Of a stretch of DNA of 64,000 bases, positions 787 to 58,270 are shown one piece after another; position 1 is the first letter of the stretch, and the number at the start of each line of letters is the position of its first letter. Source of the stretch: Candidatus Scatocola faecipullorum. GTDB lineage: Bacteria; Pseudomonadota; Alphaproteobacteria; RF32; CAG-239. The translations under genes and the position numbers were made by a program. The stretch covers positions 76,758 to 140,757 of the forward strand of contig DVNC01000021.1 in assembly GCA_018714685.1 (NCBI GenBank). Direction: 5' to 3'. The notes beneath the pieces were generated by a model. It searched no databases and had not been told where the DNA came from. It worked only from the letters and a program-made list of their open reading frames with translations.

Positions 787-866
787 TAGAGCAATTTTGC
801 GAAGCGTTAAAATTTCATGTACACAGGTGTACGTTAGAATTTTTTAGTTTCCCGGAAATCGTTCTA
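787..866. repeat. GTAC-centred palindromic element, copy A (after rplI)
   Basis: Outer arms tagagcaattt / aaatcgttcta, centre catGTACacagGTGTACg. The left part caattttgcgaagcg resembles cagattttgcgag of copies B, G and J. Confidence 0.6.
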
Positions 867-908
867 TTTACGCAGGCTGTTCAAAGTTTATCTTTAATTC
901 TGAAAAAC

Positions 909-941
909 ACCCTCTGTGAAAAAACAGGGGGTATTTTTTTT
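909..941 (+). terminator. Rho-independent terminator after rplI
   Basis: Hairpin accctctg-tgaaaaaa-cagggggt followed by a T8 run. Confidence 0.65.
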
Positions 942-1082
942 ATGGCAATTTGTTTTGCCGCGATGCGGAGAGAGCACGACGGGCAGGTCAGGCCGGAGGA
1001 GGGCGGAAAAAATATGCCGAAGGGTAACCGCAGAACAAGATTTCAAAAGGTATGAACGGACGGTGACAGAAACGGAAAGGTT

Positions 1083-1772
1083 TCAGCGGCAGTATTGTTC
1101 GGGAAAAAGTTTGAAATGCAGCCACAAAATTAAAGCATAGGTTATGGTGGCGCTGAAAAAGACGTCAGAGACAAAATGTGAGCCTTGGGCTATGCGGGCA
1201 ATTCCGGTGGCTATTCCGAGGATAATAACCGCGCTTATTCCCCATTTGCGGTACCGGTGCGGAAGCAGCAGTGCCAGAGCCAGGCTCCAGAAGATGACGG
1301 CCGTGTGTCCGGACATGAAAGAGCAGTCCCAATCGCATTGGTTGGAAATGACCATCGGCGAGGTAAAATTTTTGTTTCCGCCGAATTCGATAATCTGATA
1401 AGGGCGGGCGCGTCCCCAGAAAGTTTTGAAAATTCCGTTAACGATTAAAATCGGGCCGAGCAGCATGGAGCCGGTGGTAAGGAGCATTACTTTGGTGTTT
1501 ATGCCCCAAAGCCAGCGGCGGCGCAGCAGTCCCCACCCCCAGATTAAGCCGAAAGCAGCGGCAATTCCGATGAATATTTCCGGCAAGCCCCGGCGCAAAA
1601 AGGGAAAAAAGCCCCAATCGCCGAGGTAAAAACGGTTATCTCGGAAGAAAAAAGCGCTGACCGCCAAATCCAACTGCGGGGAAACGGCCACAATCATAAA
1701 TAAAGCGCAGATAATCCAGAAATTGAGCTGCGGCGGCGTGCAGACCGGTTTGTTCATATCAGCCGTCCTCAA
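1083..1772 (-). CDS. PAP2-family membrane phosphatase
   Basis: Multi-TM ORF with PAP2 motifs SGH (FMSGHTAV) and ARIAQGSHFVSD. The start could instead be the MNKP Met at 1757. Confidence 0.8.
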   Translation of the reverse strand: MRTADMNKPVCTPPQLNFWIICALFMIVAVSPQLDLAVSAFFFRDNRFYLGDWGFFPFLRRGLPEIFIGIAAAFGLIWGWGLLRRRWLWGINTKVMLLTTGSMLLGPILIVNGIFKTFWGRARPYQIIEFGGNKNFTSPMVISNQCDWDCSFMSGHTAVIFWSLALALLLPHRYRKWGISAVIILGIATGIARIAQGSHFVSDVFFSATITYALILWLHFKLFPEQYCR

Positions 1773-2865
1773 GGTGCAGCAAAACGGTGATGCTTATGAG
1801 CGCGGCAATCAGGGTCGGCGTCCATACGGCCATGAAAGGCGGAATATAGCCGTTGAGCCCGAAAGCATAAATAACCTGAGACAGAAAGTAAAAGATAAAG
1901 CCGGTGGATACGCCGCCGACGATCAGGAACATAACGCCGCCGCGCCGGTTGTTGGGGCGGAGGGCGAAAACCGCGGCAATTAAAATCATGGCGCAGAGCA
2001 GAAACGGTGAGGCCAGCAAAGACAGATAGTGCAGGTAGTGTTTCAAAGCCGAGAAACCGGATTTTTCATAAAAGCGGATAGTGTCTGGCAAATCCCAGAA
2101 GGAAATGGATTCCGGATCAACAAAGTTTTCCTTGATGCGGTCAAGGGTCAGGCTGGTGGTATATTTGACGCTGGGCAGGGCAATGGTGGCTTTGCCGGCC
2201 TCATAAACTTTAACGTCTTTCAGTTCAAAGCCGTTGCTGTCGTCCAGCGTGGCGGCAAAAGCTTCAACCCGGCGGATAAGCTGGGCATTGCGGTCCATTT
2301 CCATAATCGTGACTTCCCGCAGGAGCAGGCTGTTGTTTTCCTGATGAAGGTTGCGCGCCTGGATGACCAGAACCGTGTCTTTGTTGACTGCTTCTCTGGT
2401 CCAGAGGCCTTTATCGGTAAATAAAACGGCATTGGGGTTGCGGGTTTTGAAACGGTAGTCCATGGTTTCATAAAGTTCATACATTTTAGATGAAACCGGG
2501 TTGATGACAGTGATGTTGACGATGCCGATTAAAAAAGTGGTGACCAGTACCGGGAACAGAAAACCCCAGATAGACACTCCGGCCGCGCGGATAATGACAA
2601 ATTCGTTGCTTTTGCTCAAACGCCAGAAAGTTATCATGGCGGCAATCATCATCACAAAAGGAAAGACCATGTCTATCGTCTGCGGAAGTTTGGTGACGGC
2701 CATTTGGATGACAAAGAGGAAGCCGACGTCTTCTCCGGCGGCACGGCGGAGCATTTCAATCAGTTCAAAGATAAAAACCACGCCGAGCACCATCAGCAGC
2801 ACCCCCAGGAAGTTGAGGATAATCTGTTTGCTGAGATAACGGCCGAGAATAGAATTTGGATTCAT
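1759..2865 (-). CDS. lptG: LPS export ABC permease, LptF/LptG family (LptG-like)
   Basis: 368 aa. The N-terminus ILGRYLSKQIILNFLGVLL, the RAAGVSIW motif and the central periplasmic domain between TM blocks are typical of YjgP/YjgQ permeases. Confidence 0.75.
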   Translation of the reverse strand: MNPNSILGRYLSKQIILNFLGVLLMVLGVVFIFELIEMLRRAAGEDVGFLFVIQMAVTKLPQTIDMVFPFVMMIAAMITFWRLSKSNEFVIIRAAGVSIWGFLFPVLVTTFLIGIVNITVINPVSSKMYELYETMDYRFKTRNPNAVLFTDKGLWTREAVNKDTVLVIQARNLHQENNSLLLREVTIMEMDRNAQLIRRVEAFAATLDDSNGFELKDVKVYEAGKATIALPSVKYTTSLTLDRIKENFVDPESISFWDLPDTIRFYEKSGFSALKHYLHYLSLLASPFLLCAMILIAAVFALRPNNRRGGVMFLIVGGVSTGFIFYFLSQVIYAFGLNGYIPPFMAVWTPTLIAALISITVLLHLEDG

Positions 2866-5603: not shown

Positions 5604-7763
5604 ATGAAAAACATTAGTTCATACTTGTGCGCCCTGTTTCTGGCTGGCTTTTTTGCGGCTGAAGCAGAGGCTTTGACGTATTCTGATTCTCCTTCATGGT
5701 ACACCGGTCTCATAGGCAAAAGTCAAAACCAAATTCTTGAACCAAAGCCCTTGGGCGACATTTCCCGACTGCTCAAGCTGGCGAAAGTTCATTTTATTGT
5801 TGACAGCAACGACAAGCTCGGTTTTGACAATATTGAACAGAGTTTTGACCATGACAATATTAACCGCTGTAAGGCCCTGGGCTTTAACAAGACCGGCGCC
5901 TGCGGCTCAAATCAAAGGGTGTCGCGCTACTGCCCTTATGACAATTCATATTATGACCAGTGCTGCGACATGAACTTTGCCTATTCCAAAGGCGAATGCT
6001 CTTATCCCAACACCATCAGCGGAAACTCCTGCGGCGGGAAATTCAAATGCTATTGCGACAGAAGCCTGTATCCTTATACCGCCACTTCTTGCCCTTCGCC
6101 GAAAATTCATAATGAAGACAAATGTGCCGAGGTAACTTATTCGGCAGGTAAAGCCGCGACCAATATTTATTATTCCGATTGTCTTTGTCCGTCTTCCTGG
6201 ATTACCTGCGACAGTTCAATCCATCAGAAAGGAAACGGGCAGAAATGTGAATATAACGGCGTTACCACTTATGCTTCATGCAGCTGTGAGCCCGGGTACA
6301 GTCTGCTTTGTGAGGAGTTCGGGCCGAAGTCGCCGATGGATTATTGTTTCCTGAAAGGAACGAAATATTACAAAACCTGCAAGACGGAAAAAGACGTTTG
6401 CGACAGTCTGGGATACAAATATTCCAAAGACAGTCCGTGTGATGCGGACTCGGTGATTGCAAGTTACTGTCCGCGGGGAAGCGGCAACACATATTTCTCA
6501 TGCAAAATCGATCCGGACAAATATTGCAAAAACCGTGGTTTTACAACATCTGCCTGCGGTGAATTTCAAACAGTCAGTTCCGAGAAATGCAATGTGCCGG
6601 GGTTTGGGGTACAGGGACAGTATCGCAAATGCAGCCATACCTGCAAGAGCCGTTTAGCGGCGGCTTATCCCAATTACAATTTTGACGGAGTGCGTTCGTC
6701 TAACGGCGGAACGATGGTCTATACCAAAAATGTGGTTGATAATAATCTGAGCGCTTCCAGCAACAGTTATTTCAAATCGGCCTATTCATTCCGAAACAAT
6801 TATTCGGAATGTGCCAATGTCGGCAAGCCGACGGTAACGGTTAATACCTCCGGCAGTACGGTAACTATTCTCTCCGGTATTAATTTGAGCGATGTAAACG
6901 TAAAACTGAATTTGAGCAACGGTTCGAGATATAACGTTAAATTGGACCGCCCGACAACATTTAACAATGCGACGGTTTCAACCAGCCAAACCGCCAAGAT
7001 GACGGTTTACAAAACAACGCTGTATGTTGAAGGGGGAACGAATCTTACGGGAATTAACCAGTTGGATGTTGAAGGCGAACAAAATGACGGAACGTCGGCG
7101 AATTCGTATATTTATGTGAGAGGGGCGGCTTCTTTGGGCAATGTTTATCTGTTCGGGCGTTCCCGCCTTTATGTGAGCGATACCAGCGGTTCGTCTTCGG
7201 CCAGAAATGTTTATATCGGCTGGCGGTATAACAACAGCAACGGCAATCGCGAAGATCACGGCCGGGCGCTGTTTGAACTGGCGGCCAATTCCAAATTTAA
7301 AGTAACCGGAACTGTTGAAATCGAAACCCGATGGGGCGATGCGCCTTTGTCGGGCAGCGGCGGTCCGGCTTTGTATATGCGTGATAAGTCGCAGCTTTAT
7401 GCCGATTATATAAAGAGTTATAATGCAGAGCATTTTATCGGTTATTATGCCATTGTCTGTGCGCGTAACTATTGGCTGCAAAATAAAAATGACCGTGGCT
7501 ATACCAAGATTAAATTCGGGCGGTATGCCAAACTTTTGACCAGAGACGGTTCCGGCTATTTCCGGGCATCATCGGGGGCAACATCCGGTAATTGTTATGC
7601 TTCCGGCTGTAATAATGTTCAGGAGATTATCAGTAAGTTTAAGTCATCGGATGTTGAATTGTCTGGTGCGGGGCATCATGACAAGTGGGCGATGTCTGTA
7701 CAATGGAGCCGTCCGGATACGACGGGCGCTTATAATACCTATTGCGGCAAGTGGTATTACTGA
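5604..7763 (+). CDS. Large secreted cysteine-rich repeat protein with beta-helix-like C-terminal half (no assignable family)
   Basis: GAGGTG precedes the ATG at 5604. Signal peptide MKNISSYLCALFLAGFFAAEAEA. About 29 Cys fall between residues ~90-350 in recurring Y-x-x-C-x-C modules. The Asn/Ser/Thr/Gly-rich C-terminal half looks like an adhesin passenger. Confidence 0.8.
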   Translation: MKNISSYLCALFLAGFFAAEAEALTYSDSPSWYTGLIGKSQNQILEPKPLGDISRLLKLAKVHFIVDSNDKLGFDNIEQSFDHDNINRCKALGFNKTGACGSNQRVSRYCPYDNSYYDQCCDMNFAYSKGECSYPNTISGNSCGGKFKCYCDRSLYPYTATSCPSPKIHNEDKCAEVTYSAGKAATNIYYSDCLCPSSWITCDSSIHQKGNGQKCEYNGVTTYASCSCEPGYSLLCEEFGPKSPMDYCFLKGTKYYKTCKTEKDVCDSLGYKYSKDSPCDADSVIASYCPRGSGNTYFSCKIDPDKYCKNRGFTTSACGEFQTVSSEKCNVPGFGVQGQYRKCSHTCKSRLAAAYPNYNFDGVRSSNGGTMVYTKNVVDNNLSASSNSYFKSAYSFRNNYSECANVGKPTVTVNTSGSTVTILSGINLSDVNVKLNLSNGSRYNVKLDRPTTFNNATVSTSQTAKMTVYKTTLYVEGGTNLTGINQLDVEGEQNDGTSANSYIYVRGAASLGNVYLFGRSRLYVSDTSGSSSARNVYIGWRYNNSNGNREDHGRALFELAANSKFKVTGTVEIETRWGDAPLSGSGGPALYMRDKSQLYADYIKSYNAEHFIGYYAIVCARNYWLQNKNDRGYTKIKFGRYAKLLTRDGSGYFRASSGATSGNCYASGCNNVQEIISKFKSSDVELSGAGHHDKWAMSVQWSRPDTTGAYNTYCGKWYY

Positions 7764-19533: not shown

Positions 19534-21063
19534 ATGCAAAGAATCGAAAATATGCCCAGACCTGAAATTATTTTGGTTGCCGATACGGTAGCCCGTGAGA
19601 AAAACATTGATAAAGAAGATGTTTTTGAAGCAATGGAAATTGCCATTCAGAAGGCTGCCCGTTCCAAATACGGTTTCGAACACGACATTCGTGCGACGAT
19701 TGACCGCAAAACCGGCGCCATCAGTCTGGCCCGTTACCGTGAAGTGGTTGATGAGATTGTTCCGGCGGAAGGCGAAGAAGACGACAGTCAGAATGCAACC
19801 AAAATTTTGCTGGAGGATGCTTTGGCTTACGATGAAAATGCCAAAGTCGGCGATTTTATCATTGATGAGCTGCCGCCGATCGATTTCGGCCGCATTGCCG
19901 CCCAGACCGCAAAGCAGGTTATTGTTCAGAAAGTTCGCGATGCCGAACGTAATAAACAATTTGAAGAATACAAAGAAAAAGTCGGTACGATTATTAACGG
20001 AACCATCAAACGAATCGAGTTCGGCAATGTTATTCTCGATATCGGCAAAGCGGAAGCCATTCTGCGCCGCGATGAAATTATTCCGCGGGAAAAATTCAAA
20101 AACGGCGACCGGGTTCGCGCTTATGTCCTTGATGTTCGCCGCGAGAATAAAGGGCCGCAGATTTTCCTTTCCCGTACTTGTCCGGAATTCTTGGCCAAGC
20201 TGTTTACGCAGGAGGTTCCGGAAATTTATGACGGCGTGGTTAAAATTATGGGCGTTGCCCGTGATCCGGGTTCAAAAGCGAAAATTGCCGTTAAAGCCGA
20301 TGATATGACGGTTGACGCCGTCGGTGCCTGCGTCGGTTTGCGCGGTATTCGCGTTCAGGCGGTGGTTACCGAACTGCAGGGCGAAAAAATCGATATTGTT
20401 CCTTATTCCGAAGACAAGGCTCAGTACATTGTCAGTGCTTTGGCTCCGGCCGAAGTGACCAAAGTCGTTTTGGATGAAGAAAACAACCGTATTGAAGCGG
20501 TTGTTCCGCAGGAGCAGTTCTCCATTGCCATCGGCCGCCGCGGACAAAATGTTAAACTGGCTTCCCAGCTGCTGGGCTGCGATATTGACGTTTTGACCGA
20601 AGAACAGGAACAGGAACGCCGCTCAAATGAAAATAAAGTTCGTTCACAACGCTTTATGGAAGCCTTGGACGTTGACGAGATGATTGCGCATCTGTTGATT
20701 GCCGAAGGTTTCTCTACCGTGGACGAAGTTGCATTGGTTCCGCTGAGCGAACTGTCCGAAATTGAAGGTTTTGATGAAGACGTTGCTTCCGAATTGCAGT
20801 CCAGAGCCAAGGCCTTTATCGAAAAACGCAATGCCGAATTTGCCAAGAAGAGTGAAACTCTCGGTATTGACGAGAAACTCAAAGGCATTGAAGGGCTGGA
20901 TCAGGATATGATTTTGACACTGGCCGATAAAGGTGTTAAAACCATTGACGACTTGGGCGATTTAGCCGCAGACGAACTGATGGAAATGCTCGGGGAGAAT
21001 GTTCTTTCCGAAGTAGAAGCTAATCGGATTATTATGGCGGCTCGCGCCCACTGGTTTGAATAA
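19534..21063 (+). CDS. nusA: Transcription termination/antitermination factor NusA
   Basis: 509 aa with S1, KH (IGRRGQNVKLASQL) and C-terminal HhH repeats. Confidence 0.97.
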   Translation: MQRIENMPRPEIILVADTVAREKNIDKEDVFEAMEIAIQKAARSKYGFEHDIRATIDRKTGAISLARYREVVDEIVPAEGEEDDSQNATKILLEDALAYDENAKVGDFIIDELPPIDFGRIAAQTAKQVIVQKVRDAERNKQFEEYKEKVGTIINGTIKRIEFGNVILDIGKAEAILRRDEIIPREKFKNGDRVRAYVLDVRRENKGPQIFLSRTCPEFLAKLFTQEVPEIYDGVVKIMGVARDPGSKAKIAVKADDMTVDAVGACVGLRGIRVQAVVTELQGEKIDIVPYSEDKAQYIVSALAPAEVTKVVLDEENNRIEAVVPQEQFSIAIGRRGQNVKLASQLLGCDIDVLTEEQEQERRSNENKVRSQRFMEALDVDEMIAHLLIAEGFSTVDEVALVPLSELSEIEGFDEDVASELQSRAKAFIEKRNAEFAKKSETLGIDEKLKGIEGLDQDMILTLADKGVKTIDDLGDLAADELMEMLGENVLSEVEANRIIMAARAHWFE

Positions 21064-21075
21064 AACGCGTTCTAT

Positions 21076-21175
21076 GGCCGGCTAGTACAGATTTTGCGGG
21101 TCGGGAAAATGCTCATGTACTTCTGTGTACACTCCGCTTTTCCCACCCTGAAATCTTACTATCCGGCTCATATAA
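21076..21175. repeat. GTAC-centred palindromic element, copy B (nusA-ylxR spacer)
   Basis: ggccggctagtacagattttgcgggtcgggaaaatgctcatGTACttctGTGTACactccgcttttccc...gaaatcttactatccggctcatataa. Identical to copy G at most positions by eye. Confidence 0.75.
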
Positions 21176-21207
21176 CCTATTTTGTTTTTTTATTAACAGG
21201 TTTGTTT

Positions 21208-28079: not shown

Positions 28080-28349
28080 ATGTCGATTACAAATGAAAAA
28101 AAACAGGAATTAATTAAAGAATTCGGCCAGACCCCGGGTGACACCGGTTCTCCGGAAGTTCAGATTGCCATCTGGACCTACAGAATCAACTCTCTGATTG
28201 AGCACTTCAATACGCATCAGAAAGATCTGCACTCCCGTTTGGGCTTGATGAAGATGGTCAGCCGTCGTCGTCACCTGTTGGATCACCTGAAATCAAAAAG
28301 CGAAAGTCGGTATCAGGATCTGATTAAGAAGCTCGACCTCCGTAAATAA
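28080..28349 (+). CDS. rpsO: 30S ribosomal protein S15
   Basis: 89 aa. [11 protein letters not shown]...[30 protein letters not shown]-like S15 pattern. Confidence 0.97.
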
Positions 28350-28472
28350 GATTGATTTTATGCGGTATCTAAAGCAAAAAATGCGAGTACGAAAAAATTC
28401 ATGTACTTTTATGTACATTAAAATTTTTTCGTCTCTGTTTTTCACTTTATCTACTCCCCTAAAATCAATCTT
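28348..28472. repeat. GTAC-centred palindromic element, copy D (rpsO 3' UTR)
   Basis: Perfect 13-nt terminal inverted repeat aagattgatttta / taaaatcaatctt. Inner perfect inverted repeat acgaaaaaatt / aattttttcgt. Centre catGTACttttatGTACa. The left end overlaps the rpsO TAA. Confidence 0.85.
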
Positions 28473-32534: not shown

Positions 32535-32825
32535 ATGGCAGATATTACTTTTGACGCAAAACTGCGTGAAAAAGCAGGTAAGGGGGCAGCTCGTGCATGT
32601 CGTCGTGAAGGCCGCGTTCCCGCGGTTATTTATGGCGGTAACAAAGAAGCCCTGATGATCAGCTTGGATCCGGTTCAGCTGGAAAAAGCTTTGGACATGG
32701 TCGGTTTCTATGACGCCGATATCGAAATCAATGTTGACGGCAAAAAACATAAGGTTGTTTGCCAGGATGTTCAGTTTCATCCGGTAAGCGATATGCCGTT
32801 GCACGTCGATTTCCTCAGAAAATAG
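32535..32825 (+). CDS. rplY: 50S ribosomal protein L25 (short form, no Ctc C-terminal domain)
   Basis: REKAGKGAARACRREGRVPAVIYGGNKE...VQFHPVSDMPLHVDF is the L25 fold. 96 aa. AAGGAA RBS. pth lies downstream as usual. Confidence 0.85.
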   Translation: MADITFDAKLREKAGKGAARACRREGRVPAVIYGGNKEALMISLDPVQLEKALDMVGFYDADIEINVDGKKHKVVCQDVQFHPVSDMPLHVDFLRK

Positions 32826-32933
32826 TTTTATAGACTATCTAAGGCGATTTTACGCGGACTCAAAATTTACGTACTTCTTGTGCGCTGAAATTTTTCTTGC
32901 CGTTAGAAATCGCCTTATTTATGTCTCTAAAAC
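32825..32933. repeat. GTAC-centred palindromic element, copy E (after rplY)
   Basis: Outer inverted repeat gttttatagac / gtctctaaaac. Perfect inner inverted repeat taaggcgattt (32840) / aaatcgcctta (32907). Centre acGTACttcttGTGCGc. Begins at the last base of the rplY TAG. Confidence 0.7.
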
Positions 32934-32957
32934 CGTTTTTTCAAATAGGGAGAGAAA

Positions 32958-37028: not shown

Positions 37029-37237
37029 TAAAGGCTTGTCATGCTTGTAATTTTTTCACTCGTGTAGCTGGATGTACACGTCGTTCAAAAGTTACTTCGC
37101 AGCACAAGCCTTTATCAAAATCAACGTTTAAAAGCTTGCCATACTTGTAATTTTTATTCGTGTAGCTGGATGTACACGTTGTTCAGAAGTTACTTCGCAG
37201 CATAAGCCTTTATTGAAATCAACGTTTAAAAGTTTGT
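37029..37237. repeat. Tandem duplication (about 2.1 copies of a 98-100 nt unit) of an F-type palindromic element
   Basis: Units start at 37029, 37129 and (partial) 37227. Each has arms aaggcttgt / acaagcctt (copy 2: ataagcctt) and centre gtgtagctggatGTACAcg. Confidence 0.85.
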
Positions 37238-38010: not shown

Positions 38011-38487
38011 ATGCGTCTGGCGTTGTTTCAACCTGACATTCCGCAAAATACCGGCACATTATTGCGTCTTGGAGCATGTTTGGACATTGAGCTTGATATC
38101 ATAGAGCCGTGCGGGTTTATTTTCTCCGAGAGGACCTTAAAACGGGCGGGAATGGATTATCTGGACATGGTGAGATACCGTCGTCACCATTCCTGGGAGC
38201 ATTTTTTGCAATATCGGGCCGAGCATCCGGAAGAATACGGACGAATCGTGCTTTTGACAACACATGCCAGCGAGCCTTATTATAATTTTGAATTTCGGCC
38301 GAACGATATTATCCTGATGGGACGCGAATCGGCCGGCGTGCCGGAGGAAGTACATCAAACCGCCGATGCCCGCCTGCTGATTCCGATGAATCACAATGCA
38401 CGGTCAATCAATGTGGCCGTGTCGGCGGTGATGGTGGTGGGGGAGTGTCTTCGCCAAGTAAACGGTTTTCCTGCTATGGAGGATTAA
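38011..38487 (+). CDS. trmL: tRNA (cytidine/uridine-2'-O)-methyltransferase TrmL (SpoU/TrmH family)
   Basis: MRLALFQPDIPQNTGTLLRLGAC...LLMGRESAGVP...IPM...RSINVAVSA are the SPOUT knot motifs. GGAGAGGAG RBS. Confidence 0.9.
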   Translation: MRLALFQPDIPQNTGTLLRLGACLDIELDIIEPCGFIFSERTLKRAGMDYLDMVRYRRHHSWEHFLQYRAEHPEEYGRIVLLTTHASEPYYNFEFRPNDIILMGRESAGVPEEVHQTADARLLIPMNHNARSINVAVSAVMVVGECLRQVNGFPAMED

Positions 38488-38576
38488 TACAGATTTTGCG
38501 AGTGGGGAAATGCTCGTGTACTAAGGTGTACACTCCGCTTTCTCCTCTCTAAAATCTTATTACTCCTCTCATATAA
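38479..38576. repeat. GTAC-centred palindromic element, copy G (overlaps the trmL 3' end)
   Basis: ggaggattaatacagattttgcgagtggggaaatgctcgtGTACtaagGTGTACactccgctttctcctctctaaaatcttattactcctctcatataa. Confidence 0.8.
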
Positions 38577-38690
38577 GTCTCTGCGGGTAGCTGATACTGC
38601 TTTTTTTTGATTGATTCTTTGTACCGGTATGATATGACAAAACAAAATCAAGTTATTTTGTTTTTATTATCAACTAAAAAACTAATTTTT

Positions 38691-40178: not shown

Positions 40179-40188
40179 TTTGTATAAA

Positions 40189-44136: not shown

Positions 44137-45108
44137 TTAATAAACGACTTTGGTTAAGTATAATCCGCAGGCAGGGGCGTTGACCCCGGCGGCGGCACGG
44201 TTCTTCGCCTCTAATATCCGTTTGACATCTTCGGGGTGCAAATGTCCGTCGCCGACCATCTTCAGCGTGCCAACCATATTACGCACTTGGTGGTGCAGGA
44301 AAGAGCGGGCTTCGACAATGAAATGAATTTCTTCTCCTCTGACCTCAATATCCAGTCTGTCCAGCGTTTTAACCGGGGATTTGGCCTGGCATGCCGCGGC
44401 GCGGAAAGAACTGAAATCATGGTGCCCGATAAGATAACCGGCTCCCTCACGCATTTTTTCAACATCCAAAGGCACCGGAACCCACCAAACCCGGTTTTTT
44501 TCCAATACGGCCGGAGCCCGGCGGTTAAGAATCCGGTAGAGGTAACCGCGTCCTCTGGCGCTGAAACGGGCATGGAAATCATTTCCGACTTTTTCAACCG
44601 CAATAACGCTGACCGGAGCTTCCATTTCGCGCAAACGGGCGTTTATCGCTTCCCGTAACTTCCAATCGACCAAATCTTCTTTTAAGTCGAAATGTGCAAC
44701 CTGAGCTGTGGCATGGACGCCGGCGTCTGTTCTTCCTGCTCCGGAAACAATGATTTTATCGGTCTTCTGCAGGCGTCTTCCGGTGCCCGCGTCCTCACGT
44801 ACGTCTATGTACGCTGCGGTTCTGCGCTCCGTGGAGCCACCAGCATAAGCCTCACTAAAATCATTGTTGAAAAAAGCATCGGTCTTCTGCAGGCGTCTTC
44901 CGGTGCCCGCCTCCTCATACAATTCTTGAATGGGGAAATCCTCTTCTGATTTTTCCTTGTTATTAAGAGAGCAGGTATCCGTGTCGTTGACAGGAGTGAA
45001 GCAGTTCAGGGCTTTTTGCAAATAGTCCTGCACCGAGGGGCCGTCCAGTTGTTCCTGCCAGCCGAGGAGGCTGGTTCCGTCATATTCGATTGTTATTTTG
45101 TAGCGCAT
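44137..45108 (-). CDS. truA: tRNA pseudouridine-38/39/40 synthase TruA carrying an in-frame repeat insertion
   Basis: MRYKITIEYDGTSLLGWQEQ...SVQ and the catalytic GAGRTDAGVHA. 323 aa, versus about 250-270 aa for TruA proteins I know. Confidence 0.9.
   Translation of the reverse strand: MRYKITIEYDGTSLLGWQEQLDGPSVQDYLQKALNCFTPVNDTDTCSLNNKEKSEEDFPIQELYEEAGTGRRLQKTDAFFNNDFSEAYAGGSTERRTAAYIDVREDAGTGRRLQKTDKIIVSGAGRTDAGVHATAQVAHFDLKEDLVDWKLREAINARLREMEAPVSVIAVEKVGNDFHARFSARGRGYLYRILNRRAPAVLEKNRVWWVPVPLDVEKMREGAGYLIGHHDFSSFRAAACQAKSPVKTLDRLDIEVRGEEIHFIVEARSFLHHQVRNMVGTLKMVGDGHLHPEDVKRILEAKNRAAAGVNAPACGLYLTKVVY
44747..44917. repeat. GTAC-centred palindromic element, copy I, plus a duplicated left arm, inside the truA ORF
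   Basis: Terminal inverted repeat acaatgatttta (44747) / taaaatcattgt (44856). Centre cacGTACgtctatGTACgctgcggt. An exact 33-nt repeat occurs at 44758-44790 and 44878-44910. Confidence 0.8.
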
Positions 45109-48140: not shown

Positions 48141-48147
48141 AAAATAT

Positions 48148-48176: not shown

Positions 48177-48214
48177 GGCGGTTAGTCTGTAAATTAGGGA
48201 GCTGGCGCGGTAAG

Positions 48215-49474: not shown

Positions 49475-49480
49475 CCGGCA

Positions 49481-51850
49481 ATGAGAGAAAAACTTTATCT
49501 GGAATCCGATAGTTCTTTTTTCAGACGTTTTGTGCTGCTGCCGATTATCGTTTTGCTGATGGTGGTCGGTTTTGTCCTGTCGGCGGTGGTTTTTCTGAGC
49601 CTTTCCCATGTGATGTTTTATGGTTTCAATGAACAGTCGCTGGCAGATTTGGGGCATTTCTGGCTGAGTTGTCTGACCCGTCCGCAAAGGCTGTGGGAGG
49701 CTTATGCCGAGTGGTTTTACGTTTTCCGGCTGGCGGCGGCTTATCACAAGCTTGTGCCGGCCAGCTTTATGCCTTTGCTGGGGCCGCTGCTGTTTATCGG
49801 CGCAACGGTGTGGGCTTATGTCAAGAGTCCGAGTTCGTTTAAGCTGTGGTATCGACTGAAAAATCATTATGCCAAATTTGAAGATGTTCAGAAAATGGGC
49901 ATTTTGAACGGAACTCTGTTTGCCTTGGGGCGTTTTCAGAATCAGGTGCTGCGGTTGTGTCGTCCGCTGTCGGTTTTTGTCTGGGGCGGTGAGGGGTTAG
50001 GCAAAAGCAGCTGCGTTTCCCTTCCGTCGGTTCTCGAATCTGATGATACCTGTCTGGCGGTGGCCGACAGCACGGGAATTCTGGCAAAATATTCAAGCGG
50101 TTACCGGTCGCGGTTGGGTAAGGTTTTTTATTTTAACTGGGGTTTGACCGATGTGCCGGAAAAGGGCGAATTCTGGCCGCGTTGGAATCCGGTGTCGCCT
50201 AAGGATCTGCCGGTTCGCGGCGAGGGGCGTCTGGCTTATATCAAAATGTTGGTTTCCTGCCTTTTCCCTTCCGAAAAGCATAATTTTTGGGAAAAAATCA
50301 GTCAGACTGCTTTGGAAGGATTGCTGCTGTTTTATGTTTCCAAAATCGAACAGGCCATGGCCAATGACTATTTTCTCAGCGGTTTGCTTGAAAAAGGCCG
50401 GATAGCCAAAGAAGACAGAGAACTTTTGCAGAGCTATTACCGGGCAATGAATCCGGAATTGGCGGCGCCGGCGCTGAAAGCTTTGGAGAGCGGGAAACTG
50501 ACGCTGGACAATTATCTGCCGGTGGGCAGTTGGGAAAATGTTTCCGAATCCTGGCGGGGAAAGGAGTTTTGTCTGCCGATGTTTGCCGACTGCCTGATGC
50601 AGCGTTATTTTGCAATTACACAGGAAGACGAAGAAAAAGCCGCGGTCGGCGGATTTAAGGTTATGCTGGGCGAGTTTATCAAAGAAGCGCAGGTTTTCGG
50701 TTATGACCGCCGCGCCATTCAGGTTATGCAGCAGTTGTACTATATGACCCGCAAACAGCGGCGGATTATCTTTACCATGCTGATGGCTCCGCTGACGGTT
50801 TTCCGCAAGAGCACCATCCGGTCGCGCACCAGTTTGAGCGATTTTTCCCTGAACCAGCTGCGCGGCATTTGTGAAGACGGCAGTTGGCGGGTTACCACGC
50901 TCTACACCGTGGCGGATGCGGTGAAATCTTCCGGGTTTATGAGCCGCTTTCTGATTGATATGCTTATTGCGCATAATCTGCGCCCGCGTTCGGAGGAAGG
51001 GCCTTTTGCGCTGGCTTTTGTTCTGGATGATTTCGAACGTTTGCCGAAACTTTCAAAGCTGGCGGCAGGACTGACACAAGGGCCCGAACTCAGAATGTCT
51101 TTCCTGATGCTGACGGACGGGCTGCACCTGATTCAGAACAAATACGGCATGGAAGAGCTGGAAGATATTATCGGCAACAGTTCGGTCAAGCTGATGATGG
51201 CCGAAGACAAGCGTCGGATGAGCGAGCATTTTAACAAACTGGCGGTTTACGGAACCCGTTCGGTTCAGATTCCGGCGGTGGATGCGGGAGCCTTTTACAA
51301 GGTTAAGAAAGGGTTGGCCGATGCCAATTATTATCACCGAATTGCCAGAGATTTGATGAATCATCCGAAGACGGTATCCTTTGACAAATCGCATTATCTG
51401 CTTTTGGTGGAAGGTTTTTATCATCTGCCGGTAAATATTTCTTCCAATAATTTTCTTCGCGACGGCAAGCTGAAAAGCAAGGCTGCCTGCGGTGCCAGTT
51501 ATATTCTTGATGAAACGCTGGCGGCGCAGCGCAATGTGCAGGATGTGGATGCGCCGGATTTGATTGCGGTTTTGCAGGAGGGCGGCATCAATATTGAAAA
51601 AGAGGAAGACGTCGATATTTATCTGGAAGACAAGTATGACGAGGTGGTCGAAACGCTGGAGGAAGATTCCGACGTGCAGACGGTGTGGGCGGAGGAAATT
51701 TCAAACCGGTGGAATTCGGCGCCCTCGGCGGCAGAAAATCCGCAGGATCTGAGGGTGAAGAATGATGACTGGTGGCTGGACGAGGAGGCTTTTAAAACGG
51801 CGGACAGCGATAATGCGAATCCTTTTGAAAGCTTGAACGAAAAGAATTAA
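49481..51850 (+). CDS. VirD4/TraG-family type IV coupling protein-like ATPase (divergent, orphan)
   Basis: Two N-terminal TM helices, Walker A VWGGEGLGKSSCVSLPSVLE, the RWNPV block, Walker B FVLDDFERLPKL, then LMLTDGLHLIQNKYG, and an acidic C-terminal tail. Starts 6 nt after the previous stop. Confidence 0.75.
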   Translation: MREKLYLESDSSFFRRFVLLPIIVLLMVVGFVLSAVVFLSLSHVMFYGFNEQSLADLGHFWLSCLTRPQRLWEAYAEWFYVFRLAAAYHKLVPASFMPLLGPLLFIGATVWAYVKSPSSFKLWYRLKNHYAKFEDVQKMGILNGTLFALGRFQNQVLRLCRPLSVFVWGGEGLGKSSCVSLPSVLESDDTCLAVADSTGILAKYSSGYRSRLGKVFYFNWGLTDVPEKGEFWPRWNPVSPKDLPVRGEGRLAYIKMLVSCLFPSEKHNFWEKISQTALEGLLLFYVSKIEQAMANDYFLSGLLEKGRIAKEDRELLQSYYRAMNPELAAPALKALESGKLTLDNYLPVGSWENVSESWRGKEFCLPMFADCLMQRYFAITQEDEEKAAVGGFKVMLGEFIKEAQVFGYDRRAIQVMQQLYYMTRKQRRIIFTMLMAPLTVFRKSTIRSRTSLSDFSLNQLRGICEDGSWRVTTLYTVADAVKSSGFMSRFLIDMLIAHNLRPRSEEGPFALAFVLDDFERLPKLSKLAAGLTQGPELRMSFLMLTDGLHLIQNKYGMEELEDIIGNSSVKLMMAEDKRRMSEHFNKLAVYGTRSVQIPAVDAGAFYKVKKGLADANYYHRIARDLMNHPKTVSFDKSHYLLLVEGFYHLPVNISSNNFLRDGKLKSKAACGASYILDETLAAQRNVQDVDAPDLIAVLQEGGINIEKEEDVDIYLEDKYDEVVETLEEDSDVQTVWAEEISNRWNSAPSAAENPQDLRVKNDDWWLDEEAFKTADSDNANPFESLNEKN

Positions 51851-51910: not shown

Positions 51911-53227
51911 ATGATGGAAGAGACCCTTTTTTCAAATAACGTCAAACGTCCTTTGGCTGACCGCCTGCGTCCGCAAAGCCTTAAAGAGGTTGTGGGGCAG
52001 GAACATATTGTCGGCGATGATGCGCCGTTGGGACGAATGATTAAAAGCGGCAAGATTACCTCCTTTATTCTCTGGGGGCCTCCCGGCTGCGGAAAAACAA
52101 CAATCGCCCGTTTGATTGCCGAGAATACAAATTTATATTTTGAGCAGATTTCCGCCGTTTTTTCCGGCGTGGCCGATTTGAAACGGGTGTTTCAGTATGC
52201 GCAGGAACGTCGGGCCACGCAGGGAAAAGGCACTTTGCTGTTTGTCGATGAAATTCACAGGTTTAACAAATCGCAGCAGGACGGCTTTCTGCCCTATGTG
52301 GAAGACGGCACGATTATTCTGGTCGGAGCAACGACGGAGAATCCTTCTTTTGAACTTAACGCGGCGTTGCTGTCGCGGTGTCAGGTTTTTGTTTTGAACC
52401 GTCTGAACGAAGATAATTTTGAAGAACTGCTGGCGCGGGCAGAACGGGAGACCGGACGGAAGCTTCCGGTTGACGGAGAAGCGCGGCAGATTATGAAATC
52501 GACCGCCGACGGGGACGGTCGGTATATCCTTAATTTGGCGGAAAGTGTCTGGGCTTATGCCAAAGAAGGAGAGGTTTTTGACAAAGACAGCATTCTGAAA
52601 GTCATCCGTTCACGGGCACCGATTTATGACAAGGGGCGTGACGGTCACTATAACCTGATTTCGGCAGTGCATAAATCGCTGCGCGGTTCCGATGTCGATG
52701 CGGCGTTATATTGGGCAGCGCGTATGCTGGAGGCGGGAGAGGATCCGAAATATCTGCTGCGGCGGCTGACCCGTTTTGCCGTTGAAGACGTTTCGTTGGC
52801 AGAGCCTAATGCCGTAACTCAGGCCATTGCCTGCTGGGAGACATACGAGCGGCTTGGTTCGCCGGAAGGCGATTTGGCGATTATGCAGTTGGTGGCTTAT
52901 CTGGCGACGGCGCCGAAATCCGTGGGCGTTTACAAAGCGATGTATAAAGCCCGGGAACTTGCCCGCAAGACCGGTTCGCTGATGCCGCCGAAAAATATTC
53001 TGAACGCGCCGACCAAACTGATGAAACAATTGGGTTACAGCGAAGGATATGAATATGATCCCGATTGCGAAGACGGCTTTTCCGGTGCCAATTACTTTCC
53101 CGACGGCATGAGTCGGGTTAAGATTTATTTTCCGGTTGACCGCGGCTTTGAACGGGAGATTAAGAAGAGGGTGGAGTATTTTGATAAACTCCGGAAGGAA
53201 AAGCAAAATCGCAAGGCGGAAAACTAA
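51911..53227 (+). CDS. rarA: Replication-associated recombination protein A (AAA+)
   Basis: LADRLRPQSLKEVVGQEHI...LWGPPGCGKTTIARLIA...LFVDEIHRFNK plus the MgsA C-terminal domain. Confidence 0.95.
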   Translation: MMEETLFSNNVKRPLADRLRPQSLKEVVGQEHIVGDDAPLGRMIKSGKITSFILWGPPGCGKTTIARLIAENTNLYFEQISAVFSGVADLKRVFQYAQERRATQGKGTLLFVDEIHRFNKSQQDGFLPYVEDGTIILVGATTENPSFELNAALLSRCQVFVLNRLNEDNFEELLARAERETGRKLPVDGEARQIMKSTADGDGRYILNLAESVWAYAKEGEVFDKDSILKVIRSRAPIYDKGRDGHYNLISAVHKSLRGSDVDAALYWAARMLEAGEDPKYLLRRLTRFAVEDVSLAEPNAVTQAIACWETYERLGSPEGDLAIMQLVAYLATAPKSVGVYKAMYKARELARKTGSLMPPKNILNAPTKLMKQLGYSEGYEYDPDCEDGFSGANYFPDGMSRVKIYFPVDRGFEREIKKRVEYFDKLRKEKQNRKAEN

Positions 53228-53309
53228 TACAGATTTTGCGAGCAGCCAACAGCCTCACGTACTTCTGTGTACGCTGCGGTGTTGTCTCTCTGAAATCTTA
53301 TTATTTTCC
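53218..53309. repeat. GTAC-centred palindromic element, copy J (overlaps the rarA 3' end)
   Basis: ggaaaactaatacagattttgcgagcagccaacagcctcacGTACttctGTGTACgctgcggtgttgtctctctgaaatcttattattttcc. Confidence 0.8.
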
Positions 53310-53347
53310 TCGCCTATCGACATGAGGGATTTTAAGGACAAGCACAA

Positions 53348-57385: not shown

Positions 57386-57397
57386 GATAAGGACACA

Positions 57398-57898
57398 ATG
57401 ACAGCAGACTTGAAAGCGATGGCAAAGGATGTGGCTCAGCATCGCGACGAAATTATTGAGCGGATGGTTAATTTTTCCCTGACGGATACTTTGTTGTTCC
57501 GCAATCCCGATGCAGAAGACCTGATCGCCGAAGAACGTCAGGTTTGGGATCCGATTGTCGAGTGGGCGAAAAAAAACATGGACGCCGATTTTAAGACCAG
57601 CGAGAGTTTGGAAGTTCCGATGGAAAATAATGCATCGCTGCCTCGTTTGCAGGTTTTTTTAGAAAAGCTTTCCGATAAAGAACTGGCGGCTTTTTATCAG
57701 ACCGGAAAAATTACAAAGTCGGTTTTGCTGGCCGCGGCGCTGGTCAAAAAGCAGATTACGGCCGATGAGGCTTTTCGCGCCGCTTTTCTGGAAGAAATCT
57801 GGCAGGCCGACAAATGGGGACATGATGCCGAAGCAGATCAGAGACGGGAAGTCATCCGGCAGGAACTGATTGACGTCGAGAAGTTTTTGGCCGAGTGA
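57398..57898 (+). CDS. ATP12-family F1-ATPase assembly chaperone (short, C-terminal part only)
   Basis: DTLLFRNPDAEDLIAEERQVWDPIVEWA...ITKSVLLAAALVKKQITADEAFRAAFLEEIWQADKWGHDAEA matches the ATP12 helical domain. Confidence 0.7.
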   Translation: MTADLKAMAKDVAQHRDEIIERMVNFSLTDTLLFRNPDAEDLIAEERQVWDPIVEWAKKNMDADFKTSESLEVPMENNASLPRLQVFLEKLSDKELAAFYQTGKITKSVLLAAALVKKQITADEAFRAAFLEEIWQADKWGHDAEADQRREVIRQELIDVEKFLAE

Positions 57899-58188
57899 TG
57901 GAAAAGGAAGTCTATCTGAAAATCAAAGGTCGGGTGCAAGGAATCGGTTTTCGCTGGTGGGCAGTTAAAACGGCAGAGGAAATCGGCGGCATTTCCGGCT
58001 GGGTTCATAATGCGGCAGACGGGTCGGTTGAAATTCTGATGAGCGGCGAAGAAGATAATATTGACCGGATGATTTTGGCCTGCCATGCAGGACCGCCGCT
58101 GGCTCGTGTGGACAGCGTGAGTTTTATTGTCGGGCGGCGGTCGGGATTTTTGCCGCCGATTGTGGCAGGTGTATTCAAAAGAGTTTGA
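57898..58188 (+). CDS. acyP: Acylphosphatase
   Basis: VYLKIKGRVQGIGFRWWAVKTAEEIGGISGWVHNAADGSVEILMSGEE. The ATG overlaps the ATP12 TGA (TGATG). Confidence 0.85.
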   Translation: MEKEVYLKIKGRVQGIGFRWWAVKTAEEIGGISGWVHNAADGSVEILMSGEEDNIDRMILACHAGPPLARVDSVSFIVGRRSGFLPPIVAGVFKRV

Positions 58189-58194
58189 AATCCA

Positions 58195-58270
58195 GGGCTT
58201 TCTCTGCGGGTTAAAAGTGTCCTTACCTACTTCTGTGTACGCTACGGTACTTTTGACGACTGTTATTCGA
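58195..58270. repeat. GTAC-centred palindromic element, copy K (after acyP, degenerate)
   Basis: gggctttctctgcgggttaaaagtgtccttaccTACttctGTGTACgctacggtacttttgacgactg. The centre is nearly identical to copy J. Confidence 0.55.

What the first reader, a model, noticed from the sequence alone, without database searches (positions are those of the whole stretch)
787..58270. Dispersed family of GTAC-centred long palindromic elements at gene 3' ends (11 loci in 64 kb, all in one orientation)
Eleven loci carry an 85-125 nt imperfect palindrome with the same architecture: outer inverted repeats, inner arms and an asymmetric centre.

- **Loci:** 787, 21076, 24298, 28348, 32825, 37029 (x2), 38479, 40189, 44747, 53218 and 58195.
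- **Outer inverted repeats:** aagattgatttta/taaaatcaatctt at 28348/28460 and acaatgatttta/taaaatcattgt at 44747/44856.
- **Inner inverted repeat:** taaggcgattt/aaatcgcctta at 32840/32907.
- **Centre:** (C/T)GTAC-N4-6-GT(G)TAC.
- **Shared ends:** copies B, G and J share tacagattttgcg(a/g)g on the left and (g/a)aaatcttat on the right.
- **Position:** ten copies start 0-15 nt from the stop codon of a + strand gene (rplI, nusA, infB, rpsO, rplY, ychF, trmL, carD, rarA, acyP). One lies inside truA.
- **Orientation:** judged from the asymmetric centre and ends, every copy points the same way on the + strand, including the one in the minus-strand gene truA.
- **Mobility genes:** no transposase or RAYT gene is present in the window.

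In concept this is comparable to REP/BIME, Correia or Rickettsia RPE elements, but I do not recognise the sequence as any of them. The likely roles are 3'-UTR stabiliser, terminator, RNA-processing site, or a non-autonomous mobile element. These roles are inference.
Basis: partly seen in the sequence, partly recalled or inferred. Interest (0 to 1): 0.8.

Follow-up and report, generated by a model that had tools for sequence, protein, structure and literature searches.

The report
RPE-1-like palindromic repeats after genes
The window from an uncultured gut alphaproteobacterium carries twelve copies of a 100-125-base hairpin-forming repeat. The repeat is a distant relative of the "Rickettsia palindromic element 1", sits right at the stop codons of housekeeping genes (once in frame inside a gene), and is conserved far better than neutral DNA.

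Summary
Twelve copies at eleven loci, all on the + strand, form long hairpins with a shared apex (CTCAYGTAC-N6-GTACRCTSCG) and co-varying stems. Chance expectation is about 0.1.

It is not an unknown family.
- The same apex pattern retrieves genuine RPE-1 copies in Rickettsia tamurae. Their translations pass the curated RPE1 domain model at 67-69 bits.
- The in-frame insertion in truA encodes an RPE1-like peptide. A profile built from such inserts retrieves RPE1-domain proteins.
- The pattern also hits more than 120 genome stretches across Proteobacteria, Chlorobi, Acidobacteria and Nitrospirota.
- Neisseria Correia elements share a composite signature with part of this set.

Copies begin at or within about 12 nt of a stop codon, upstream of separate canonical terminators. 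Four sites are shared with a related species and empty in two more distant ones. Orthologous copies are 82-90% identical, against 57-66% at third codon positions, with nine double compensatory pair changes.

Best reading: an ancient non-autonomous palindromic insertion element of the RPE-1 superfamily, now maintained as a co-transcribed structured module. The mobilising enzyme and the function are unknown. I classify it as a new member of a known kind.

The parts
765..888 (+). Copy A, after rplI. It starts with the stop codon TAG. Outer inverted repeat TAGAACTTTG/CAAAGTTTA. A canonical terminator follows at about 905-940.
   Evidence: (model hit 777-877, 61.6 bits)
21061..21195 (+). Copy B, between nusA and infB. 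The degenerate outer repeat starts with the nusA stop codon TAA. The core is flanked by TA...TA.
   Evidence: z -9.6; 21074-21172, 97.9 bits
24281..24393 (+). Copy C, after infB. It starts with the stop codon TAA. Outer repeat TAAATGTT/AACATTTTA.
   Evidence: (24293-24385, 67 bits)
28347..28472 (+). Copy D, between rpsO and pnp. It starts with the rpsO stop codon TAA. Outer repeat TAAGATTGATTTTA/TAAAATCAATCTT. No length difference from the window in six metagenome strains (98.7-100% identity over the locus).
   Evidence: (28361-28460, 70 bits)
32823..32937 (+). Copy E, between the L25 gene and pth. It starts with the stop codon TAG. The apex has a one-base deletion.
   Evidence: z -7.4; 32830-32928, 60.7 bits
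37029..37114 (+). Copy F-a, 6 nt after the ychF stop codon. Its apex is the variant CTCGTGTAG-CTGGA-TGTACACG.
   Evidence: (2 mismatches). The orthologous site is filled in L136.
37129..37212 (+). Copy F-b, a tandem copy with a 100-nt period and a weaker hairpin. The start of a third unit lies at about 37225.
38474..38577 (+). Copy G, after trmL (SpoU). The ORF reads into the element and stops at the TAA of GGATTAATAC. The copy is flanked by TA...TA.
   Evidence: z -8.1; 38476-38573, 89 bits
40176..40297 (+). Copy H, after carD. It starts with the stop codon TAA. Outer repeat TAATTTG/CAAATTA. A canonical terminator follows at 40314-40345.
   Evidence: (40187-40285, 92 bits)
44747..44868 (+). 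Copy I, inside truA (minus strand, 44137-45108). It is in frame and encodes an RPE1-like peptide on the complement strand.
   Evidence: (44756-44854, 57.6 bits)
44878..44917 (+). A second left arm of copy I, duplicated at a spacing of 120 nt (40 codons). This unit is absent from the common 283-aa TruA allele of the same species.
53205..53325 (+). Copy J, inserted into the 3' end of rarA/mgsA. It replaces the last ~9 codons and supplies the stop codon TAA.
   Evidence: (53216-53314, 98.7 bits)
58180..58290 (+). Copy K, after the acylphosphatase gene. The left arm is decayed and the stop codon TGA lies inside the element.
   Evidence: z -0.95; 58184-58285, 57.3 bits
58291..58350 (+). Remnant of a second tandem copy after K. 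It aligns with the left arm of the second copy in the syntenic locus L088.

Best explanation
**What it is.** The copies are members of an ancient, widely distributed superfamily of non-autonomous palindromic insertion elements. Its named representative is Rickettsia palindromic element 1 (RPE-1).

**Anatomy.** Each copy is a 100-125-nt imperfect palindrome. Full-length relatives elsewhere are 150-180 nt and carry terminal inverted repeats of the form TAG...CTA.

**Insertion.** An unidentified trans-acting enzyme placed the copies at, or a few bases into, the 3' end of genes. As a result the element begins with, or supplies, the stop codon. One copy entered truA in frame.

**Persistence.** In this lineage the copies are old, inherited vertically and kept under purifying selection.

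**Proposed action (inferred).** The copies lie between a stop codon and either the next cistron or a separate terminator, so they are probably co-transcribed. I infer that they act as long RNA hairpins: double-stranded RNA processing or stability determinants, either RNase III substrates or barriers to 3' exonucleases. This has been shown experimentally for Correia/NEMIS and ERIC elements.

**Shown versus inferred.** Shown here: family membership, structure, position, orientation, gain and loss between species, and sequence constraint. Inferred: transcription through the copies, the RNA-level role and the insertion mechanism.
For: **Family and structure**
- Model and pattern statistics.
- Hairpin energies.
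- Covariation in a 90-sequence alignment that the search pattern did not impose: at columns 53/79, 45 G-C, 41 C-G and 1 G-G; at columns 58/73, 48 C-G and 41 U-A.
- A GTAC/GTAC to GTAG/CTAC compensatory variant of the apex stem occurs in L136.

**RPE-1 link**
- Two R. tamurae copies found with the apex pattern score 67-69 bits on TIGR01045, whose cutoff is 30. The window TruA insert scores 22 bits, E 1e-4.
- A profile of TruA inserts retrieves proteins that pass TIGR01045: P0149 at 89.6, P0123 at 50 and an RNase HI at 33.9 bits.
- The window-only model hits the Rickettsia copy L092 at 49 bits. It also finds a further copy in L041 that the pattern did not find.

**Mobility**
- The TruA site is empty or holds one, two or three units across relatives. 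Within the species there is a 40-codon copy-number difference.
- The sites after rarA, carD, trmL and ychF are filled in the window and in L136, and empty in L137 and L138.
- Tandem arrays occur.
- No neighbouring gene recurs across the loci.

**Stop-codon position**
- Window copies.
- Across 134 hits, an ORF ends 50-89 nt 5' of the apex in 69 cases.

**Constraint**
- Orthologous copies are 82-90% identical, against 57-66% at third codon positions.
- Among changed pairs, 9 are double compensatory, 4 are kept by a one-sided change and 6 are broken.

**Not terminators**
-.

**Published roles of relatives**
- RNase III processing of Correia-containing transcripts and RNase E effects of ERIC are described in PMC10969869.
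Against: - No transcript data exist for these copies.
- In 104 of 123 non-window copies (RNA parameters; 115 of 123 with DNA parameters) the complement strand folds better, by about 6 and 4 kcal/mol. The strand that usually lies in the mRNA is therefore the weaker hairpin.
- Orientation tracks the G-rich chromosome strand even where no ORF abuts the element (29 versus 9).
- In L137 and L138 the copies next to truA are antisense to both flanking genes. Together with the previous point, this suggests a DNA or replication-level determinant.
- Compensatory changes in palindromes can arise by hairpin-templated repair without selection.
- A target-site duplication could not be shown. Stop codons at the element's end are TGA as often as TAA or TAG.
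- The window TruA insert scores below the curated RPE1 cutoff.
Confidence: 0.55

Rival explanations
1. The element acts as single-stranded DNA and is tied to replication, in the manner of REPIN/RAYT or IS200/IS605 systems. In this reading the hairpin matters as DNA, and orientation is set by the replication fork. That could happen through strand-specific insertion. It could also happen because copies survive only when the weaker-folding strand lies on the lagging-strand template. The association with genes would then be secondary to gene-strand bias.
For: - All 12 window copies lie on the G-rich strand of a window with uniformly positive GC skew.
- After masking adjacent ORFs, the element strand is G-rich in 72 of 104 hits. 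It is G-rich in 29 of 38 hits that have no adjacent ORF and no gene-strand bias.
- The L137 and L138 copies are antisense to both neighbouring genes but keep the regional orientation.
- The strongly folding, purine-rich strand is systematically the complement.
Against: - No HUH or RAYT-like gene, or any other recurrent gene, lies near copies in the 120 loci.
- Terminal inverted repeats and TA flanks are atypical of single-strand transposons.
- GC skew over 8-kb loci is a noisy proxy for replication direction and is confounded by transcription.
- This reading does not explain the precise abutment to stop codons.
Confidence: 0.2
2. The copies are purely selfish or neutral relics of a miniature transposon with no present role. 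In this reading they persist because the interval between a stop codon and a terminator is the least harmful place to sit. Their palindromic symmetry would be kept by hairpin-templated repair rather than by selection.
For: - No function is known for RPE-1 in the papers read here.
- K and F-b are visibly decaying.
- Copy number changes by tandem duplication.
Against: - Orthologous copies are 82-90% identical, while synonymous-type sites of the flanking genes are 57-66% identical.
- Unpaired positions change about twice as fast as paired ones.
- The apex sequence is retained across phyla.
- Paralogues within the genome differ much more than orthologues do (mean column identity 51-58%). Concerted evolution therefore does not explain the conservation.
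Confidence: 0.12
3. The copies act as double-stranded DNA sites. In this reading they are binding sites for a dimeric or nucleoid-associated protein at the YGTAC-N6-GTACR inverted repeat. This would be comparable to IHF sites in Correia and RIB elements or gyrase sites in REP. The long arms would be only a legacy of the element's origin.
For: - The most conserved part is a short dyad, GTAC-N6-GTAC.
- Correia elements carry a functional IHF site (PMC10969869).
Against: - A dyad site would not need a fixed orientation. It would also not need conserved asymmetric flanks (CTCA on the 5' side, CTSCG on the 3' side).
- Stems far from the apex co-vary and stay paired.
- The GTAG/CTAC variant keeps the pairing but not the dyad sequence.
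Confidence: 0.08
4. The copies are intrinsic transcription terminators or attenuators built from long hairpins.
For: - They lie after stop codons.
- In many relatives the inner hairpin is bracketed by an A-run and a T-run.
- Copy H is followed by TTTTT.
Against: - Copies B, C, D, E, G and J lie between genes on the same strand, with no canonical terminator called between them.
- Separate canonical short GC-rich terminators follow A and H.
- The consensus scan does not call the elements terminators.
- One copy is translated within truA.
Confidence: 0.05

Closest known systems
Rickettsia palindromic element 1 (RPE-1; NCBIfam TIGR01045 'palindromic element RPE1 domain')
   Same: - Both are 100-150-nt whole-length palindromes.
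- They share the apex CTCAYGTAC-N6-GTACRCTSCG. The pattern found R. tamurae copies whose translations pass TIGR01045 at 67-69 bits.
- Both insert in frame into housekeeping genes and are read on the same (complement) strand. The peptide is similar: TAAYIDVRED in the window against TAAYTLVRKD and TATYTSVRED in Rickettsia.
- Reciprocal profile hits link the two.
- R. conorii truB is reported to carry an RPE-1 (PMC3733652). Here it is truA.
   Different: - The host is an uncultured gut alphaproteobacterium, not Rickettsia.
- The window's TruA insert scores only 22 bits, below the 30-bit cutoff.
- Most window copies are intergenic and abut stop codons.
- The arms are only about 50% identical to Rickettsia copies.
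- Most window copies lack the long outer inverted repeat of the Rickettsia type (TAGACTTCC...GGAAGTCTA).
Correia / NEMIS / CREE elements of Neisseria
   Same: - Both are whole-length hairpins of about 106 nt.
- Both have a GTAC-N5-GTAC apex.
- The composite signature GCGTTG...GTAC-N5-6-GTAC...CGCCTTG occurs in the same order and orientation as in 17 non-Neisseria members, with none in 50 shuffles.
- The 12-mer TACGGCGTTGCC is identical to L007 and L097.
- The ends are flanked by TA.
- Both are found in or beside transcription units.
   Different: - nhmmer with the superfamily profile does not detect Correia copies.
- The Correia apex lacks the CTCA and CTSCG flanks and has a 5-nt loop.
- The defining 26-bp Correia repeat (TATAGTGGATTAA...) is absent from the window. 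Relatives such as L014 share only TATAGTGGA, at a position that seems not to be homologous.
- Promoter and IHF features were not examined here.
REP/BIME and REPIN-RAYT systems
   Same: - Both are abundant extragenic palindromes that fold as hairpins, usually after genes.
- Both show an orientation bias relative to the chromosome strand.
- REP-type elements also insert in frame occasionally (PMC3733652).
   Different: - REPs are 20-40 nt and carry a GTAG or CGTC end tag, and a RAYT or TIRYT gene is usually present.
- Here the unit is a single hairpin of 100-180 nt whose apex, not its ends, is conserved.
- There is no GTAG or CGTC tag and no associated tyrosine transposase in the flanks examined.
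ERIC (enterobacterial repetitive intergenic consensus)
   Same: - Both are imperfect palindromes of about 127 nt that are transcribed with neighbouring genes.
- ERIC placement at the 3' end of genes affects mRNA decay (PMC10969869).
   Different: No sequence relationship was seen, and there is no Rfam or other match. ERIC is confined to enterobacteria and vibrios (from my own knowledge).

Membership tests
RPE-1 (Rickettsia palindromic element 1) | Interspersed repeat of about 100-150 bp whose whole length is an imperfect palindrome forming one long hairpin | tested here: met
   Hairpins of 100-125 nt at -24 to -48 kcal/mol. There are 12 copies in 64 kb.
RPE-1 (Rickettsia palindromic element 1) | Sequence similarity to bona fide RPE-1 copies | tested here: met
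   The apex pattern derived from window copies retrieves R. tamurae copies that pass TIGR01045. The window-only model scores L092 at 49 bits. It also finds a further Rickettsia-endosymbiont copy in L041 that the pattern did not pick. Caveat: L092 was itself selected by the pattern. No curated RPE-1 nucleotide model was available.
RPE-1 (Rickettsia palindromic element 1) | In-frame insertion in ORFs that encodes the RPE1 peptide (TIGR01045, cutoff 30 bits) | tested here: inconclusive
   The truA copy is in frame and tolerated. It scores 22.2 bits, E 1e-4, below the cutoff. A profile of such inserts does retrieve proteins that pass the cutoff, at 34-90 bits.
RPE-1 (Rickettsia palindromic element 1) | Restricted to Rickettsia or Rickettsiales, as in the papers read here | tested here: not met
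   The host proteins are labelled only 'Alphaproteobacteria bacterium' and come from gut metagenomes. Pattern hits occur in Mesorhizobium, Devosia, Legionella and Chlorobium isolates and in many MAGs. This is a limit of the published description rather than a structural criterion.
Correia / NEMIS | 26-bp terminal inverted repeat TATAGTGGATTAA(C/A)... | tested here: not met
   It is absent from all window copies. G has only GGATTAA, and relatives L014 and L103 have only TATAGTGGA.
Correia / NEMIS | TA target-site duplication | tested here: inconclusive
   B, G and their L136 orthologues are flanked by TA...TA. Comparisons of filled and empty sites are too diverged to show a duplication. Stop codons at element ends are TGA as often as TAA or TAG.
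Correia / NEMIS | Overall sequence similarity to the Correia core | tested here: inconclusive
   nhmmer is negative. The composite motif is shared by 6 Correia copies and 17 other loci, with none in shuffles.
REP / REPIN-RAYT | 20-40-nt units tagged with GTAG (or CGTC), and a cognate RAYT gene | tested here: not met
   The unit length is 100-180 nt and there is no end tag. No recurrent neighbouring gene was found in 120 loci. The whole genome was not available to search for a RAYT gene.
Intrinsic terminators | Short GC-rich hairpin immediately followed by a U-tract at the end of a transcription unit | tested here: not met
   The elements are not called by the scan. Separate canonical terminators follow A and H, and six copies lie between same-strand genes with no canonical terminator called between them.
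Any Rfam family | Match to a curated covariance model | tested here: not met
   No hit at gathering score in the window or in 18 related loci. Nothing overlaps the copies at E up to 5.

The most novel reading that the evidence does not exclude
RPE-1 of Rickettsia, Correia/NEMIS of Neisseria, these gut-alphaproteobacterial elements and many unnamed repeats may be one ancient superfamily. The unnamed repeats occur in Alpha-, Beta-, Gamma- and Deltaproteobacteria, Chlorobi, Acidobacteria and Nitrospirota. The shared design would be a 100-180-nt hairpin module with a conserved apex (YGTAC-N5-6-GTACR plus an asymmetric internal loop). It docks at stop codons, keeps a fixed orientation on the chromosome and is under purifying selection. 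That would imply recognition by a conserved, still unidentified cellular factor, and a real function at gene 3' ends rather than mere selfish persistence.
Probability: 0.35. Interest if true: 0.8.

Novelty: new member of a known kind. Interest (0 to 1): 0.62.

Why it matters
The papers I could read treat RPEs as a peculiarity of Rickettsia and Wolbachia, and treat Correia/NEMIS and Bru-RS as genus-specific repeats.

This window shows an RPE-1 relative, including a "protein-coding palindrome" in truA, in a very common human-gut alphaproteobacterium. The same apex occurs in many phyla.

Three features argue that these are not inert junk:
- the copies abut stop codons;
- they keep one orientation;
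- they evolve more slowly than synonymous-type sites.

If a shared factor reads the apex, the family offers a tractable route to two old questions: what mobilises RPE and Correia elements, and what long 3'-end hairpins do in bacteria.

There is also a practical point. The copies create spurious short ORFs and alter C-termini (rarA, trmL) and internal loops (TruA, HemW, RNase HI, RnpA) of annotated proteins.

Tried and rejected
- **Rfam.** No family matched at gathering score or at a permissive E-value, in the window or in 18 related loci.
- **tRNA or tmRNA.** None found.
- **Literature search by DNA strings from the apex.** Only unrelated primer hits.
- **'RPE-like' literature search.** Only retina papers.
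- **Ogata 2002.** Not held in the library.
- **Bru-RS and RIME.** No sequence was obtainable, so a suspected link to the Rhizobiales subgroup stays untested.
- **nhmmer, superfamily profile against Neisseria loci.** Negative.
- **Word-indexed protein search with the 41-aa insert peptide.** No candidates, because the query was too short for the index.
- **Neighbour-gene clustering.** Only housekeeping families such as ABC-F, FtsH and OmpA-like recur; no transposase.
- **TA-into-stop-codon targeting as the sole explanation for position.** Rejected, because TGA is as frequent as TAA or TAG at the element's 5' end.
- **The idea that the mRNA-sense strand is the better folder.** Rejected for the superfamily. 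Window copies are mixed.
- **Using the truA copy as evidence for replication-linked orientation.** Rejected, because only one strand has an open frame.

Full report

Yes.
- An alignment of ten copies shows an invariant centre and variable arms.
- Each copy folds into one long hairpin of -24 to -48 kcal/mol. Z-scores reach -9.6. Copy K and the second 37029 copy are weak.
- A covariance model built from the ten copies, run with filters off over both strands, returns those ten at 57-99 bits. Nothing else appears except reverse-strand shadows of at most 23 bits.
- The apex pattern CTYNYGTACNNNNRTGTAYRYTNCG with up to three mismatches gives ten matches, all on the + strand, against 0.13 expected by chance. 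This adds the first copy of the 37029 pair. That pair is a 100-nt tandem repeat.
- The total is therefore twelve copies at eleven loci, all in one orientation.

**2. Anatomy**

- The apex is a 5-bp stem, YGUAC/GUACR, closing a 6-nt variable loop.
- Below the apex is an asymmetric internal loop: UCA on the 5' side and CUSC on the 3' side.
- Below that are long, interrupted stems.
- In a 90-sequence alignment that includes copies from other phyla, positions the search pattern left free are almost perfectly complementary. At columns 53/79 there are 45 G-C, 41 C-G and 1 G-G. At columns 58/73 there are 48 C-G and 41 U-A.
- Two L136 copies have GTAG...CTAC instead of GTAC...GTAC. This keeps the pairing but not the sequence.
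- Most window copies also have an outer inverted repeat whose first three bases are the stop codon of the upstream gene. Examples: A TAGAACTTTG/CAAAGTTTA, C TAAATGTT/AACATTTTA, D TAAGATTGATTTTA/TAAAATCAATCTT, E TAGTTTTATAGAC/GTCTCTAAAAC, H TAATTTG/CAAATTA.
- In G, J and K the ORF runs into the element and stops there.
- For rarA, comparison with empty-site relatives shows that the element replaced about nine C-terminal codons and supplies the TAA.
- Separate canonical terminators follow A and H. The consensus scan does not call the elements terminators.

**3. What family is it?**

- Rfam has nothing.
My estimate of the chance expectation for the whole collection is about 17.
- The hits are in Alpha-, Beta-, Gamma- and Deltaproteobacteria, Chlorobi, Acidobacteria, Nitrospirota and others. 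They include cultured Mesorhizobium, Devosia, Legionella and Chlorobium strains.
- Almost all hits fold into the same long hairpin.
- Full-length relatives are 150-180 nt and have terminal inverted repeats of the type TAG...CTA.

Two of the hits are in Rickettsia tamurae, and this gives the link to RPE-1.
- Translating their complement strand gives peptides that pass the curated NCBIfam model TIGR01045, "palindromic element RPE1 domain", at 67 and 69 bits against a cutoff of 30.
- The window's truA copy, read on the same strand, encodes RRTAAYIDVREDAGTGRRLQ. It hits the same model at 22 bits, E 1e-4, which is below the cutoff.
- A profile built only from TruA inserts of this clade, searched against 1.84 billion proteins, retrieves proteins that pass TIGR01045 at 34-90 bits. 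It also finds further in-frame hosts: HemW, RNase HI and RnpA.
- I therefore place the family in the RPE-1 superfamily as a distant member.

**4. Correia**

- Real Correia copies were fetched from Neisseria-type viral contigs.
- They share a GTAC-N5-GTAC apex and the ordered signature GCGTTG...GTAC-N5-6-GTAC...CGCCTTG with 17 non-Neisseria members. No such match occurs in 50 Markov shuffles of all loci.
- The 12-mer TACGGCGTTGCC is identical to L007 and L097.
- A profile search is nevertheless negative, and the defining 26-bp Correia repeat is absent from the window.
- I treat Correia as a probable distant relative, not as the family of these copies.

**5. Mobility and age**

TruA proteins of this clade range from 248 to 391 aa.
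- The site is empty in some relatives. In others it holds a remnant, or one, two or three units.
- The common allele of the window's own species (283 aa, seen on 351 contigs) differs from the window's 323-aa protein by exactly 40 codons, which is one 120-nt unit.

Three syntenic loci were fetched through TruA homologues.
- In L136 (TruA 69% identical), copies lie after rarA, carD, trmL (two copies) and ychF. These are the positions of window copies J, H, G and F.
- In L137 and L138 (63% and 59% identical) those sites are empty, and the carD stop codon is followed directly by its terminator.
- L088 is syntenic with the right end of the window. It has two tandem copies where the window has K plus a remnant.
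- No gene recurs next to the copies in 120 loci.

This is the behaviour of a non-autonomous insertion element that has been inherited vertically for a long time.

**6. Constraint**

- Orthologous copies in the window and L136 are 82-90% identical. The third codon positions of the flanking carD, rarA, trmL and ychF are 57-66% identical.
- Among base pairs that changed, four were kept by a one-sided change, nine by changes on both sides, and six were broken.
- Unpaired positions changed about twice as often as paired ones.
- Paralogues within the genome are far less alike than orthologues (mean column identity 51-58%), so concerted evolution does not explain the conservation.
- Templated repair within palindromes could produce double changes. 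It would not hold the primary sequence constant.
- I conclude that the copies are under purifying selection.

**7. Position and orientation across the superfamily**

- In 134 hits, a long ORF ends 50-89 nt 5' of the apex, at the element's 5' end, in 69 cases. The equivalent antisense arrangement occurs in 28. The stop codons are TGA, TAA and TAG in about equal numbers.
- The pattern strand lies on the G-rich chromosome strand in 72 of 104 hits after masking adjacent ORFs. It does so in 29 of 38 hits with no adjacent ORF.
- In L137 and L138 the copies next to truA are antisense to both neighbouring genes but keep the regional orientation.
- Unexpectedly, the pattern strand of the element is pyrimidine-rich. 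The complement folds better in 104 of 123 copies with RNA parameters and in 115 of 123 with DNA parameters. Part of the difference may come from the apex internal loop, which on paper could form tandem G.A plus G.U pairs on the complement strand.
- Window copies are mixed in this respect.
- These facts keep a replication or DNA-level explanation of orientation alive.

**8. Mechanism**

- *Shown:* family membership, structure, placement between a stop codon and the next cistron or terminator, gain and loss between species, and constraint.
- *Inferred:* that the copies are transcribed and act as double-stranded RNA processing or stability modules. This rests on analogy with Correia (RNase III) and ERIC (RNase E), as summarised in PMC10969869.
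- The mobilising enzyme is unknown, as it is for RPE-1 and Correia.
- A TA duplication is suggested by the flanks of B and G, but it is not demonstrated.

**9. Verdict**

It is not a new kind of element. It is a new, divergent member of the RPE-1 class in a non-rickettsial host. Three observations deserve follow-up: the cross-phylum apex, the docking at stop codons, and purifying selection.

Noticed in passing
window 44137-45108 (truA): Within the species, TruA differs by exactly 40 aa. The window allele is 323 aa and the common allele 283 aa. The difference comes from in-frame tandem duplication of one 120-nt element unit. Relatives range from 248 to 391 aa at the same site.
   Followed up: yes
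L137 9632-9981 and L138 9713-9981: Two or three tandem copies fill the spacer between the GFO_IDH-family gene and truA. They are antisense to both genes. In the window the equivalent spacer (45109-45179) is only about 70 nt and holds no copy.
   Followed up: partly
L011 (uncultured Clostridiales UMGS1366), hits at 6592-6619 and 6771-6798: Two apex-pattern matches lie 179 nt apart with near-identical right-hand flanks, but there is no long hairpin. They sit inside a crude long-ORF call. This may be a coding repeat or a decayed array.
   Followed up: no
L013 and L025: In these copies the right arm is interrupted by an extra insert of roughly 30-60 nt. In L025 the insert is itself a small hairpin. 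This suggests nested insertions.
   Followed up: no
window 46341-51850; L136 3308-8746: A conserved chromosomal block sits between truA and rarA in all four related genomes. It holds a TraG/VirD4-like protein (T4SS-DNA_transf hits, weak in two relatives), a pentapeptide-repeat protein and a ~590-aa protein with no domain hit or only a weak SPOR hit.
   Followed up: no
L001 1070-3077 (ERZ28759960 contig_12759): In this strain truB and pnp are each split or shortened relative to the other five strains. These are either frameshifts or errors in a long-read assembly.
   Followed up: no
window 1-64000: GC skew is positive in every 4-kb bin (+0.08 to +0.19) and most genes are on the + strand. The whole window therefore lies on one replichore.
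   Followed up: partly
P0121-P0164: Most database proteins that match the RPE1-like peptide profile are 37-120-aa ORFs. They are probably spurious gene calls laid over intergenic copies of the element.
   Followed up: partly
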